A stretch of DNA of 64,000 nucleotides from Cetorhinus maximus (Eukaryota): contig NC_135901.1 of assembly GCF_964194155.1 (NCBI RefSeq), positions 25,296,001-25,360,000 of the forward strand. Reading direction: 5' to 3'. Positions 49-62,213 of the stretch are shown one piece after another; the stretch's first letter is position 1, and the number at the start of each line of letters is the position of its first letter. Under the pieces are notes generated by a model, which was not told where the DNA came from, made no database searches, and saw nothing but the letters and a program-made list of their open reading frames with translations. The position numbers and the translations under genes are program-made.

Positions 49-870
49 TCAGCCAGTTGGCTGACTCAGTGAATCCTTTCCCACACTCAGAACAGGTGAA
101 CAGTCTCTCTCCTCTGTGTGAGCTCGCTGGTGCCTTCGCAGGCTGGATGAATCAGCGAATACCTTCCTACATTCAGAGCAGGTGAATGGCCTCTCCCTGG
201 TGTGAACTCGCTGATGTCTCAGCAGGTGGGATGACTCACTGAATCCTTTCCCACACAGACAGCAGATGAAAGGCCTCTCCCCGGTGTGAACTCGCTGGTG
301 TTTCCACAGGCTGGATGAGTGTGTGAATCCCTTCCCACATTCCTTACAGCTGAATGGCCTCTCTCCAGTGTGAACGTGTCGGTGTGTCCGTAGACTGGTC
401 GACCGAGTGAATCCCTTCCCACACACAGAGCAGGTAAATGGCCTCTCTTCAGCGTGAGCCATCTGGTGTCGCAGCATGTTGGTTAACCGAGTAAATCCCT
501 TCTTGCACACAGAGCAGATGAATGGTCTCTCCCCAGTGTGAACTACATGGTGATTCTGCAGGGTGGATGATTCACTGAATCCCTTCCCACAAACAGAGCA
601 GGTGAATGGCCTCTCCCCTGTGTGAACTCGCTGGTGTGTCTGCAGGTGGGATGAGCAAGTGAATCCCTTCCCACACTCAGTGCAGGTGAACGGCCTCTCC
701 CCAGTGTGAACTCGCTGATGTGTAAACAGGTGGGATGAGTGTGTGAATCCCTTTCCACACACGGAGCAGATGAACGGCTTCTCCCCGGTGTGAATCCGTC
801 GATGAATTTCCAGTGCAGACGGGGTACGGAATCCCTTCGCACACTCCCAACATTTCCATGGTTTCTCCAT
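49..870 (-). CDS. C2H2 zinc-finger protein A (9 tandem fingers, no effector domain seen)
   Basis: ORF MEKPWKCWECAKGF... with repeated CxxC-x12-HxxxH and TGE(K/R)PF linkers. Kozak context accATGg. A tenth finger is frameshifted at the C-terminus. Likely acceptor (ttttacAG) at 1231-1232 on minus. Confidence 0.9.
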   Translation of the reverse strand: MEKPWKCWECAKGFRTPSALEIHRRIHTGEKPFICSVCGKGFTHSSHLFTHQRVHTGERPFTCTECGKGFTCSSHLQTHQRVHTGERPFTCSVCGKGFSESSTLQNHHVVHTGERPFICSVCKKGFTRLTNMLRHQMAHAEERPFTCSVCGKGFTRSTSLRTHRHVHTGERPFSCKECGKGFTHSSSLWKHQRVHTGERPFICCLCGKGFSESSHLLRHQRVHTRERPFTCSECRKVFADSSSLRRHQRAHTEERDCSPVLSVGKDSLSQPTG

Positions 871-1504
871 GGTGAGGGTGTCCTTGTATCTCCCCAGGTT
901 CGACGCTCAGTTGAAAACTTGTCCACACACACAACATGAGTATGGTCCCTCTCTGCTATGAATGGTGTGTTTTTTCAGGCTGTGTAACTAGTTAAAGCTC
1001 TTTCCACTATTAGTGCACTGGAACACTCACAGTCGTGTGTGTGTGTGTGTCAGTGCTTTTCCAGTCACACTTAAGTTTAAAACCTTCTGAAGCACACAGA
1101 ACAGACAAACCTTTCTGCTTCTTGTTTCAAAAGCTGAAGACATTCAGCTCCCAATGAATCAGGTGACTGTCAGATTCTGATGTGATGTTTGGTTTGATAA
1201 TCTGTCTGCAAATCCTCCCCTTCTAATATCCTGTAAAAGGAGTTTACAAAAGTCATAACTGTCAGTATAGGATAGAAATTCAGAACACACAATTCTAGTT
1301 TCTAGGGATCATTCTTTCTTCTCTCTTTCTCCAAAATGCTGTAAATCTTGATCCCACAAACTCTCCCTCCATTCTCACTCTGCTGGTACTAATATACACC
1401 CTCCCAATTCTCCTGAAGGTGCCAATTCATGCTGATTGTCAGATCCATGCTTACAAATTCTATATATTTATTGGACAAAAATTAATGTAGTATAAAGTAC
1501 TGTA

Positions 1505-1722
1505 TTGCATGATACATGGGGCATGTGAGGACGAACTTTATTTAGGCAGTGAGCAGACATGACCTGGAACTTTCTGCCTACGAGCGTGGTGGAAGCAGAG
1601 TTGATCAATGATTTCAAAATGAAATTGGATGGGCACTTGAAGGAAATAAATGAGTGGATTCCTCTACAAAGAGGCAGCATGGACTTGAATGGACTCCTTC
1701 TGAGCCATCATGACTCTATGAC
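1505..1722 (+). mobile_element. CR1 LINE 3' remnant in the intron of gene A
   Basis: Typical CR1 3' motifs (gtggtggaagcagag...aaattggatgggcacttgaagg). Its inverted counterpart is at 3690-3920. Confidence 0.65.
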
Positions 1723-2099
1723 TGAAAATATATAACATAGCTACAGTTCAATATTACAAGACTAGAAATAACGATAAATGTACTTTATAACAGAACCATA
1801 AATAATAATCTAATATGTATCATATAACATTAGTCATATCTCTGTCTTATATTAATTAACTGTCCCCTTAAATGCCAGCCATCTCCTGGGGAAACTACCC
1901 CTCAAATTAGAAAAATTAAGAAAGAGACCATCCTTTTAGCCAGGCAAATAAATGTGTCAAGCTGAGGGAGCAAAGAATATCAATGTCTTTAAGAGAGAGG
2001 GAGACCTGAGCCAACCTTTCCAAAGTCTGCGCCCTCCCTGGATTCACTTCCTTTCCCTTCAGCTCCTGTAAGTCAACAATTAGAAAATAATTTCCCGAA

Positions 2100-3005
2100 T
2101 TAGAAAACAAATGGAAATGGGGAGAAAAGAAAGTGTTTTACTCACAAATGTTGCACGGAGGAGGGTGTTTTAACGTCTGTGAAGCTGAACTTTCATTCAG
2201 AGAGAGAGGAGTAGCAGCTTTGCTGGACAATAATAAGCAGGTCAGCAAACTCATTGTCCAACTTCCGCGTTCAAACAACGGGGAAAATCCGTGCTGCCAG
2301 AGGCACAAAGACCACATTCTGATTGGCTGGAGAACTAGTCCACTTCCGGTCCTCCAGCTCTTTCCATTGGTCAACCCCGTTCAATGAGGGAGCGTAACCA
2401 GAGTGCACGAGAGGCCGGGAGAGACTTTGACCTCCAGACGCGCTGAGCTGTTGTCCAATCCGCAGTAGTTTTCTCCTGTAACCAGGGCTATTGATCCTAA
2501 TGAGACATGTGTTGGGAACGCCCCTTTGAGTTATTATGACGTTCATATTGGAACACTGTCTGAATTAAACAATAGGTCTGACTCTGCTCCACGGTGACGT
2601 GCTCGGGTTTAGTCTGCAGGCCAGGCGCGCGGACACGGGAGCCCCACCCATTGTTTTTCCTTCCCCCCCCCCCCCCCCCCCCCGAGCCAACGTTTCCAGG
2701 CAACCCACTCGGCGAACTCCCCCTTCCCCCTCCTCCTACCCCCAGCTGGAGAGCGACCGCTGGCGGCAACTGCATTGCGCCTGCTCCCAACAGCTCGGTC
2801 AGCAGCGCTTTCTGCGCCTGCGTGCTGGGCTGCCGGCTGAGGGAGTGTGGAAGGAGTTTGCAAAATGTCTTTTCCCCTTATTTTGTTCCAAGTCATGTAG
2901 TTTGATTTTAAACAGCACAGCATTTGTTTTTACCTTGACAAACACACTAAAACTTCCTCCTCTGTTCAACATCTTTGAGTAAAACACTTTCTTTCCCCAT
3001 TCCCC
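2100..3005. promoter_or_regulatory. CpG-rich bidirectional promoter and first exons of ZNF A (-) and B (+)
   Basis: CpG enrichment, CCAAT boxes (gattgg ~2321, cattgg ~2365, ccaatc ~2455) and ETS-like cacttccggt at 2341. Donor GTGAGT on minus at 2140-2145. Lies between two divergent ZNF exons. Confidence 0.7.
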
Positions 3006-60166: not shown

Positions 60167-60524
60167 AGAGTGGTCTATTGTCACTCTGGATAATCAGCCC
60201 TGGTGGGGGATGGTACACAATTCAGGCCTTGTATTGGGACTATACAATCCTGGTATAATTGCAGCCTCTACTTTCCTCCTGATGTCACAGATGATTCTAA
60301 TTCCCTTTATATCGATGACCTGGTTGATGAGGAGAATTCTAAGATAGTTTATAAGGAGAAAGAATAGAATGGAAACGTTTGCACTGACCAAGAAATAAGC
60401 TTTGAAGCCACAAAAGGAAGTTGGGCCCGGAGGTGAGGAATATAGCTGGATGGGAAAGACACAAATCATTTTAATAACTTTCTTCAACATTTCTCAATAG
60501 TAAGCGCGTTCTGAATAGTAAGGA

Positions 60525-61328
60525 AGAGAAGCGCGAGAGGAGCCGGCAGTTGAAAAGGGGCGCGAGAGGAGCCGGGAGTTGAAGAGGGGCGCGAGGGGAG
60601 TCGGGAGTTGAAGAGGGGCGCGAGAGCAGCCGGCAGTTGAAGAGGAACCGGGAGTTGAAGAGAAGCGCGAGAGGAGCCCCGGCAGTTGAAGAGAAGCGCG
60701 AGAGGAGTCGGGAGTTGAAGAGAAACGCGAGAGGAGCTGGCAGTTGAAAAGAAGCACGTGAGGAGCCGGCAGTTGAAGAGAAGCGTGAGAGGAGCTGGGA
60801 GTTGAAAAGGTGCGCGGGAGGAGTCGGGATTTGAAGAGAAGCGCGAGAGGAGCTGGCAGTTGAAGAGAAATGCGATAGGAGTCGGGAGTTGAGAAGAAGC
60901 GCGAGAGGAGCCGGGAGTTGAAGCGCGAGAGGAGCCGGCAGTTGAAGAGAAGCGCGAGAGCAACCGGCAGTTGAAGAGAAGAGCGAGAGCAGCCGGCAGT
61001 TGAAGAGAAGAGCGACAGGAGCCGGCGGTTGAAGAGAAGCGCGAGAGCAGCCGGCGGTTGAAGAGAAGCGCGAGAGCAGCCGGAAGTTGAAGAGAAGCGC
61101 GAGAGGAGTCGGGAGCTGAGAAGGAGCGCGAGAGGAGCCGGAAGTTGAAGAGAAGCGCGAGAGGAGTCGGGAGTTGAAGAGAAGCGCGTGAGGAGCCGGC
61201 AGTTGAAGAGAAGCGCGAGAGGAGTCGGGAGTTGAAGAGAAGCGCGTGAGGAGCCGGCAGTTGAAGAGAAGCGCGAGAGGAGTCGGGAGTTGAAGAGAAG
61301 CGCGTGAGGAGCCGGCAGTTGAAGAGGG
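60525..61328 (+). repeat. CpG-rich minisatellite, 29-bp unit gcgcgagaggagccggcagttgaagagaa, about 27 copies
   Basis: Direct tandem repeat with two main unit variants. Confidence 0.95.
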
Positions 61329-61445
61329 ACGCATGAGGAAGTGTTAGAAGAAGATTTGCATTAGGGAGACTGAGACCAAACAGCACATCAGGATCTGACG
61401 GAGTCGCCCAATTGATAGTAACTTGGGTATCATTGGATTTTGAAC

Positions 61446-62213
61446 ATGGAAGTAAAAAGAACCCCGTTCACAGTGTGAAGAAACTTTACATGTGTTCTGT
61501 GTGTGGACCAGGCTTCAGCCAATCATCTGGCCTGTCAAGACACAAGCGTAAACACACAGGGGAGAAACCGTGGAAATGTGGGGGCTGTGAGGAGGCATTT
61601 AGTTACCCATCTGAACTGGAAACTTATTGATGCATTCACGCTGGAGAGAAACCATTCATCTGCTCCATATGTGGGAAGGATTTATTCGATTATCGAACTT
61701 GCTGACACACCAGCGAGTTCACACTGTCTGGACTATGGGAATTGCTTTAAAAGTTCTGGGGGACTGATGTCCCATCAACGTGTTCATACTAACGAGAGAC
61801 CATTCGGGTGCTTTCACTGCAGGACTGGGTTCAAGCGATCATCTCAACTCATTGTACACCAGCAACTTCACACTGTGGAGAGGCCGTTCACCTGCTGTAA
61901 ATGTGGGAAAGGATTCACTCAAACATCCACCCTGCTGAAACACCAGCGAGTTCACACTGATGAGAGACCTTTTAAATGCCCAGACTGCGGGAAGTGCTGT
62001 AAAACTTTCTGCAAATTGATGTCCCATCAATGTGTTCACACTGATGAGAGGCCGTTCAGGTGCTTTCACTGTGGGACTGGGTTCAGGAAATCATCTCAAC
62101 TCACTGTACACCAATGAATTCACACCGGGGAGAGGCCATTCACCTGCTCTGAGTGTGGGAAAGGATTCGCTCAATCATCCCACCTGCTGAAACATCAGTG
62201 AGTTCACGAGTAA
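61446..62213 (+). pseudogene. C2H2 zinc-finger pseudogene H (same start type as G)
   Basis: Finger array with frameshifts, a deletion near 61725 and stops at 61628, 62115 and 62199. Terminal TAA at 62211-62213. Confidence 0.85.

What the first reader, a model, noticed from the sequence alone, without database searches (positions are those of the whole stretch)
49..62213. Cluster of eight effector-less C2H2 ZNF genes built from one repeated gene unit
Seen: the genes have related acceptors (ccttttacAG|gg/gatattagaaggggagg), one exon made only of fingers, and in most cases the tail gctgttaatcacatccaggactga. Recognition-helix residues differ strongly between paralogues, and several copies are truncated or dead. 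I see no KRAB, SCAN or BTB exon, and the leaders contain stops. Established: tetrapod KRAB-ZNF clusters evolve by birth and death against transposons. Inference: this may be an independent chondrichthyan ZNF expansion that works without a fused effector domain, sitting among its possible targets.
Basis: partly seen in the sequence, partly recalled or inferred. Interest (0 to 1): 0.7.

Follow-up and report, generated by a model that had tools for sequence, protein, structure and literature searches.

The report
Shark chromosome of finger-only genes
These eight genes are a slice of a shark chromosome carrying an estimated 3,000 copies of a gene whose reading frame holds only zinc fingers, with no known silencing domain in front, and whose predicted DNA-reading residues diverged faster than neutral between subfamilies, so they likely track changing repeated DNA and would need a separate partner protein to silence it.

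Summary
Confirmed and larger than stated. The eight C2H2 arrays are real; C and F are intact, A, D and G damaged near the end, B, E and H broken. The same unit fills contig C24 (65 Mb; estimated 2,900 arrays, range 1,250-5,700) and occurs in other sharks and a ray. Lack of an effector follows from gene anatomy: the 110-370 nt between splice acceptor and start codon is a fossil spacer plus up to three dead fingers, open back to the acceptor in only 3 of 113 copies, with dN/dS about 1. No upstream exon can normally fuse to the fingers. Live fingers are under selection: scaffold 0.1-0.3; contact residues 0.45 within young clades, about 1.6 between subfamilies. Transposon targeting is untested, and the window is not richer in repeats than other chromosomes (30% versus 43%). 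Expression of these eight genes was not shown. Finger-only expansions are known in hemipteran insects, and shark ZNF counts stand in a 2023 supplement; nine searches found no paper describing this family. The scan has reported this family before from other windows of this genome and from other genomes.

The parts
49..1230 (-). Gene A main exon: acceptor 1230, dead leader, ATG 870, 9 fingers, frameshift in the tenth, stop at 49 (273 aa)
2401..3000 (.). CpG island between head-to-head A and B; likely shared promoter (inferred)
4272..5255 (+). Gene B: acceptor 4272, ATG 4587, premature TGA after 4 fingers, further stop; broken
13425..14784 (-). Gene C: acceptor 14784, ATG 14417, 11 fingers, 330 aa, intact; first finger duplicated (96-nt repeat); reads into the tail
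15601..16200 (.). CpG island between head-to-head C and D with CCGCCATCTT motifs; likely shared promoter (inferred)
18996..20331 (+). Gene D: acceptor 18996, ATG 19352, 9 fingers then frameshift (300 aa), exact tail motif at 20308
22031..23563 (-). Gene E: leader partly deleted, no canonical start, two in-frame stops and a frameshift; likely pseudogene
24386..25000 (-). Promoter-like CpG island with family motif (24577), putative donor, and spacer-only front end upstream of E
32461..33449 (-). Gene F: acceptor 33449, ATG 33105, 7 fingers, 196 aa ending HK-stop; intact; has at least 5 close paralogues on C24
34201..34738 (-). Promoter-like CpG island upstream of F, 84% like the one upstream of E
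41210..42563 (-). Gene G (short-leader type): acceptor 42563, ATG 42454, 11 fingers, 368 aa, premature TGA two fingers before the end
46456..47200 (-). Promoter-like CpG island, putative donor, and two spacer-only front ends 4 kb upstream of G; likely non-coding exons of G (inferred)
60523..61326 (+). 29-nt CpG-rich tandem repeat (28 copies) where H's acceptor should be
61344..62255 (+). Gene H (short-leader type): no acceptor, several stops and frameshifts, exact tail motif; dead
9307..12051 (-). Decayed LINE (endonuclease and reverse transcriptase pieces)
43852..46284 (+). LINE reverse transcriptase fragment inside the likely intron of G
48447..51781 (.). Retroelement pieces with RT and GIY-YIG matches (Penelope-like is a recalled label)

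Best explanation
The window holds eight copies of a cartilaginous-fish gene family whose reading frames contain only C2H2 fingers, and the intact copies likely act as sequence-specific DNA binders that track changing repeats such as transposons and would silence them through a separately encoded partner or by occupancy, not through a fused domain. Shown: each unit is promoter-like CpG island, acceptor, dead leader, strong-context ATG, 5-15 fingers in complete frames, mostly HK-stop; it multiplies by DNA duplication of multi-gene blocks; the leader is non-coding; scaffold residues are under purifying selection; contact residues are conserved among young copies and diverge faster than synonymous sites between subfamilies. 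Inferred: transcription and translation from that ATG; DNA binding; repeats as the main targets; repression and how it is delivered.
For: Leader open to the acceptor in the ancestral phase in 3 of 113 genes with a canonical start; 11 of the 150 best genome matches to an open-leader protein lack stops; dN/dS 0.94-0.96 in the spacer and 0.97-1.15 in dead fingers; no strong internal acceptor between last stop and ATG in 43 of 43 long and 64 of 70 short leaders; no shared ATG or phase in 43 putative first exons; no KRAB match on C24 among 150 scored of 152 candidates, no BTB among 147 matches; 136 upstream frames without effector hit. Young clades (48 genes): contact 0.45 (2dL 30 against 1), structural 0.18, linker 0.31. 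Between subfamilies: contact 1.56 (n=19, 2dL 7.0) and 1.64 (n=25, 2dL 18.0), scaffold 0.11-0.22, stable across trees and parameters. Same signature and same TSV-stop in proteins named from Pristiophorus and Heterodontus; signature finger in a Hemitrygon protein. ZNF and retroelement counts correlate across animals regardless of accessory domain (PMC10547256, section 10).
Against: No binding, target or repression data. Repeat cover is lower on C24 than on control contigs. No positive selection among young copies; the first finger alone is not significant in the long type (1.2-1.4), nor the 6-gene unbiased short subset (2dL 3.3). Codon model is my own code without recombination; finger shuffling or conversion could raise contact-site values. 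Only 17 of 48 genes in the unbiased 464 kb have a complete canonical frame. All 43 long leaders hold upstream ATGs that could lower translation. No finger type showed a specially conserved non-contact surface that would mark a partner site. None of four window proteins is in the protein collection as an exact sequence.
Confidence: 0.55

Rival explanations
1. Real finger-only proteins, but their main targets are not transposons: satellites, host promoters, their own cluster, or RNA; or they act as competitors or insulators.
For: Same anatomy and selection data fit. No repeat enrichment on C24. KRAB-ZNFs often bind satellites, promoters and other ZNF genes, and non-DNA mechanisms are left open for FiNZ-ZNFs (PMC10547256 section 10).
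Against: Thousands of copies with rapid turnover and contact-site divergence is the pattern tied to repeats in mammals and zebrafish; canonical linkers under purifying selection favour tandem DNA binding.
Confidence: 0.27
2. A hidden short N-terminal module (FiNZ-like) is made after all: the acidic 36-40 codon spacer, or a small upstream exon, is translated in the working minority.
For: 3 of 113 and 11 of 150 copies keep the leader open; some annotated models begin M-spacer, one with the Met apparently split across the splice junction (P0127, P0135); FiNZ is only 28 aa and acidic; frames under 42 aa were not scanned; no transcript was read directly.
Against: Spacer dN/dS 0.94-0.96; leader diverges like intron in young clades (0.050 against 0.043-0.048); frame relative to the ATG is scattered; annotated N-terminal extensions in other sharks are unrelated to each other; intact, selected arrays occur behind closed leaders.
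Confidence: 0.1
3. A largely functionless amplicon: copies spread by unequal recombination and decay; apparent order reflects recent duplication.
For: Many broken copies: 3 of 8 dead and 3 damaged in the window; 17 of 48 complete nearby; leaders and tails are fossil coding sequence.
Against: Within one exon, dead fingers show dN/dS about 1 and adjacent live fingers 0.11-0.22 at the scaffold; purifying selection continues in clades only 2-9% diverged; family predates the shark-ray split by named hits.
Confidence: 0.05

Closest known systems
Tetrapod and lobe-fin KRAB-ZNF clusters (PMC4592553, PMC2604467, PMC10380595; passages read)
   Same: Tandem clusters, all fingers in one 3' exon, birth and death, contact-residue divergence.
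   Different: No KRAB exon; the region that would join it to the fingers is closed by stops and frameshifts; KRAB matches in this genome lie on other contigs.
Cyprinid FiNZ-ZNFs on zebrafish Chr 4q (PMC10547256; abstract, introduction, discussion, passages, supplement rows read)
   Same: Lineage-specific KRAB-free expansion concentrated on one chromosome, with positive selection on fingers.
   Different: FiNZ genes keep a conserved 28-aa N-terminal peptide; here the N-terminal spacer is neutral and untranslated in nearly all copies. TE repression is shown for FiNZ-ZNFs, not here.
Hemipteran ZF271-like / APEZ zinc fingers (PMC6444547; passages read)
   Same: Finger-only proteins, tandem clusters, pseudogenes, no KRAB or other domain; partner unknown.
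   Different: Insect, about 115 genes in clusters of 4-8 with varied exon structure; here a vertebrate chromosome with thousands of copies of one fixed unit and a fossil leader.
Shark ZNF counts in Wells et al. 2023 supplement
   Same: 475-3,586 ZNF ORFs per chondrichthyan genome and ZNF-rich shark scaffolds are listed.
   Different: Main text has no occurrence of 'shark', 'cartilaginous' or 'chondrichth'; gene anatomy is not described there.

Membership tests
KRAB-ZNF | KRAB domain exon spliced in frame to the finger exon | tested here: not met
KRAB-ZNF | Tandem C2H2 array with TGEKP-type linkers in one exon, clustered genes | tested here: met
KRAB-ZNF | TRIM28-dependent silencing of bound elements | not testable with these tools
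   No binding assay; TRIM28 presence in G000 not searched
SCAN-ZNF | SCAN exon upstream in frame | tested here: not met
   None in 136 upstream frames; genome search scored only 150 of 4,987 dispersed candidates, none on C24
BTB-ZNF | BTB domain upstream in frame | tested here: not met
   0 of 147 matches on C24, 150 of 218 candidates scored
FiNZ-ZNF | Conserved short acidic N-terminal peptide | tested here: not met
   Spacer dN/dS about 0.95, mostly closed; 6 or 15 residues precede the first Cys in 108 of 113; no FiNZ profile was run
Lineage-specific poly-ZF expansion under positive selection (Emerson and Thomas 2009) | Many paralogues from tandem or segmental duplication, with pseudogenes | tested here: met
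Lineage-specific poly-ZF expansion under positive selection (Emerson and Thomas 2009) | dN/dS above 1 at helix positions -1, 2, 3, 6 | tested here: met
   Met between subfamilies (1.45-1.66), not within young clades (0.45)
Finger-only ZNF expansion (ZF271-like / APEZ kind) | No domain besides fingers | tested here: met
   works-like only, no homology claimed
Finger-only ZNF expansion (ZF271-like / APEZ kind) | Broad expression support | tested here: inconclusive
   one search gives family-level contig cover only
TE-repressing ZNF system | Binding to and repression of TE families | not testable with these tools
   No motif predictor or binding data; one search shows no local repeat enrichment

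The most novel reading that the evidence does not exclude
Cartilaginous fish run a third vertebrate zinc-finger defence, after KRAB and FiNZ: a whole chromosome of thousands of bare finger arrays that lost their ancestral N-terminus to the 5' UTR before the main shark lineages split, retarget in bursts of selection, and silence repeats through a partner that docks on the fingers themselves.
Probability: 0.3. Interest if true: 0.78.

Novelty: new variant of a known kind. Interest (0 to 1): 0.5.

Why it matters
Emerson and Thomas (PMC2604467) left open whether ZNF genes without an annotated N-terminal domain truly are finger-only or are mis-annotated. Here the gene anatomy answers it for a vertebrate family of thousands of copies: the link to any upstream exon is dead sequence, yet the fingers are selected. 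That makes a clear question testable: how does a bare finger array repress, or what else is it for? It would also fill the gap for cartilaginous fish in the ZNF-transposon story, and shows that shark annotations with long N-terminal extensions on these genes are probably chimeric models.

Tried and rejected
Expression: no RNA holder listed. Contigs of four runs guessed to be RNA were laid on the first 19 kb; they cover finger exons, leaders and repeats, but mostly at 90-99% identity, no informative splice joint was shown, and uncovered bins prove nothing; inconclusive. Histone link: the spacer hit an H2A-like Pristiophorus model, but none of the 150 scored histone matches (of 2,465 candidates) lies on C24 and the model ends at the family's leader stop; read as a chimeric model. 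Stop-codon readthrough or recoding of the shared TGAs: rejected, since leader length modulo 3 is scattered and some copies have TAA. Hidden effector finger: the W-type first finger and the KPD-RSH pair (45 of 50 short genes) have variable contact residues and no outstanding surface conservation (classification is circular, weak test). Constraint on the leader: not seen in young clades; its slower rate between subfamilies (0.66-0.71 against 1.2-1.4) is unexplained (conversion or CpG loss). Per-class rate fit was unstable and was replaced. Full-length homologue search returned generic ZNFs. Atlas search gave no answer. Exact look-up of four window proteins found none. No structure prediction was run, as it would not separate the explanations. 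Papers PMC8455134, PMC11603059, PMC10208646, PMC5519329, PMC11602157 and PMC12513265 (passages) do not describe the family.
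Full report
Observation. A six-frame scan finds eight C2H2 arrays between 49 and 62,213. A/B and C/D are head to head around CpG islands; E, F and G each have an island upstream. Seven have a related acceptor and six the tail motif within 6 mismatches. C (330 aa, 11 fingers) and F (196 aa, 7 fingers) are intact; A, D and G keep 9-11 fingers before a frameshift or early stop; B, E and H are broken. The intervening DNA includes LINE and GIY-YIG retroelement pieces.

Scale. 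The window lies on G000 contig C24 (65.16 Mb). F's leader gave 4,396 first-look candidates, and its 41 listed matches lie on C24 or small contigs; a spacer peptide gave 5,233 candidates, the 150 scored spanning 0.37-64.1 Mb of C24 plus small contigs. Eighteen evenly spaced 10-kb samples held 8 arrays, giving an estimate of 2,900 arrays (Poisson range 1,250-5,700); the 464 kb around the window holds 52. Twenty 10-kb samples of other contigs held none. F-like and G-like genes recur as a pair about 8 kb apart at three places, and in young clades intron, leader, four-fold sites and 3' flank diverge alike (0.038-0.050): duplication is at DNA level, in blocks.

Anatomy. 101 of 105 arrays have the same spacer within 750 nt upstream. 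Of 157 arrays, 136 unique genes had spacer and acceptor; 113 had a canonical start, 23 did not and were left out. Most loci outside the 464 kb were chosen by likeness to F or G, so the set is biased. Two types: short leader (about 109 nt, M-EGKSTVH, 70 genes) and long leader (about 350 nt with three dead fingers, M-EKPWKC, 43 genes). Both starts have A at -3 and G at +4 in nearly all. Complete frames mostly end HK-stop (50 of 78). In the unbiased region 17 of 48 genes are complete by this strict test.

Is there an effector? No KRAB match on C24: three good hits lie on C34, a weak one on C22; they look like a PRDM9 KRAB exon (recalled, not tested; PMC5519329 passages report PRDM9 in cartilaginous fish). 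BTB: 0 of 147 on C24. SCAN: dispersed, 0 of 150 scored on C24, 4,987 candidates. Pfam on 136 upstream frames: one sub-threshold finger hit, no effector; the control hit KRAB. These tests miss unknown domains, so the stronger argument is the leader. It is open from acceptor to ATG in 5 of 113 genes, 3 in the ancestral phase. Searching with an open-leader protein, which favours open copies, only 11 of 150 best matches lack a stop. Spacer dN/dS is 0.94-0.96 and dead fingers 0.97-1.15. No long leader and 6 of 70 short leaders have a strong internal acceptor after the last stop. Putative first exons share no ATG or phase (43 with a donor, of 53). An annotated model labelled Cetorhinus maximus (P0131) matches a C24 locus and uses a spacer-only exon with a GTAAG donor 3.6 kb upstream, so such cassettes, also present upstream of E and G, are probably 5' UTR exons. 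N-terminal extensions in named shark models are unrelated to one another. A minority with open leader may carry the 36-residue spacer.

Selection. My own codon model (shared synonymous rate, within-codon CpG term, FastTree trees, no recombination). Young clades, 48 complete genes in 11 clades: contact 0.45 (2dL 30.0 against 1), other helix 0.67, structural 0.18, linker 0.31, rest 0.49. Between subfamilies (copies over 93% alike thinned): first live fingers have contact 1.56 (long, n=19, 2dL 7.0) and 1.64 (short, n=25, 2dL 18.0), scaffold 0.11-0.22; dead-finger contact positions, the internal control, give 0.97. Across trees and parameters the values stay 1.45-1.66. Against: the signature finger alone is significant only in the short type (1.7-2.0), the 6-gene unbiased short subset is not significant, and shuffling or conversion among fingers could inflate the values. 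Reading: specificity changes in bursts when a subfamily is founded and is then kept.

Distribution. The N-terminal region of G hit 7 of 7 chondrichthyan proteins; 9 of the 10 spacer hits looked up (of 15) are named from Pristiophorus, Heterodontus, Scyliorhinus and Cetorhinus, one is unnamed. Pristiophorus and Heterodontus models end at the same TSV-stop as long leaders here, so that stop is old. A ray protein has the signature finger. No tree against KRAB or FiNZ fingers was built.

Targets. Untested. Cover by repeats shared with other contigs is 30% in the window, 27% on C24 samples, 43% in controls (Mann-Whitney p=0.012; library drawn from the controls, so C24-specific repeats are missed). 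Neighbouring transposons are therefore no evidence of targeting.

Expression. Not shown for these genes. Ongoing purifying selection in clades 2-9% diverged implies that many copies are translated (inference).

Literature. Nine searches found no description of this family; the library lacks most subscription papers. Wells et al. 2023 list 475-3,586 ZNF ORFs for chondrichthyans and ZNF-rich shark scaffolds in supplements only. Finger-only expansions are described in hemipterans (PMC6444547). Positive selection in KRAB-free fish expansions, and the open question whether domain-less ZNFs are real, are in PMC2604467. TRIM33 is proposed as the fish partner of KRAB-like and FiNZ domains (PMC11603059), which these proteins lack. 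PMC12774644 (listing only) reports C2H2 fingers that mediate protein contacts. The labels YY1-like and NRF1-like for the promoter motifs are recalled.

Earlier scan notes reach the same picture from other windows; the anatomy and young-clade results were in hand before the first look-up, the selection contrast before the second. They are not counted as support.

Verdict. Real, well-supported finger-only family under selection (about 0.9); repeat targeting with a separate partner or occupancy about 0.55. A new variant of a known kind; interest 0.5.

Noticed in passing
L001-L003 (G000:C34:9.12-9.40 Mb): Three near-identical KRAB-box exons within 280 kb; they look like duplicated PRDM9 (recalled), the only good KRAB matches in the genome.
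   Followed up: partly
G000:C32 (8.7-21.4 Mb) and C39 (1.0-1.9 Mb): Over a hundred top-scoring histone matches packed on two small contigs; 2,465 first-look candidates in all.
   Followed up: no
genome-wide: 4,987 first-look SCAN-domain candidates dispersed over many contigs, probably a SCAN-bearing retroelement (recalled: Gmr1-like); none of the top 150 on C24.
   Followed up: no
window 52011 (-): Orphan copy of the 3' tail motif (5 mismatches) with no finger array: possible relic of a ninth gene.
   Followed up: no
window 60523-61326: CpG-rich 29-nt tandem repeat, 28 copies, in place of gene H's acceptor.
   Followed up: partly
window 14660, 33345 and long leaders generally: The consensus long leader has an ATG opening a 15-codon frame that ends at the old TGA shared with Pristiophorus and Heterodontus models; could act as an upstream ORF, though dN/dS is about 1.
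   Followed up: partly
window 41650-42080 and 45 of 50 short-type genes: Recurrent atypical finger pair (K-C-P-D-C then R-C-S-H-C with TDERP linkers), also in Scyliorhinus and Pristiophorus proteins.
   Followed up: partly
window 13054-13997 and 32107-33033: C and F share 78% identity extending about 400 nt past the stop, a conserved 3' module; most complete genes have a poly(A) signal within 300 nt.
   Followed up: partly
window 47396-48468 and 26426-26835: Purine-rich 21-23-nt repeat (about 50 copies) inside a retroelement, and a 21-nt minisatellite.
   Followed up: no
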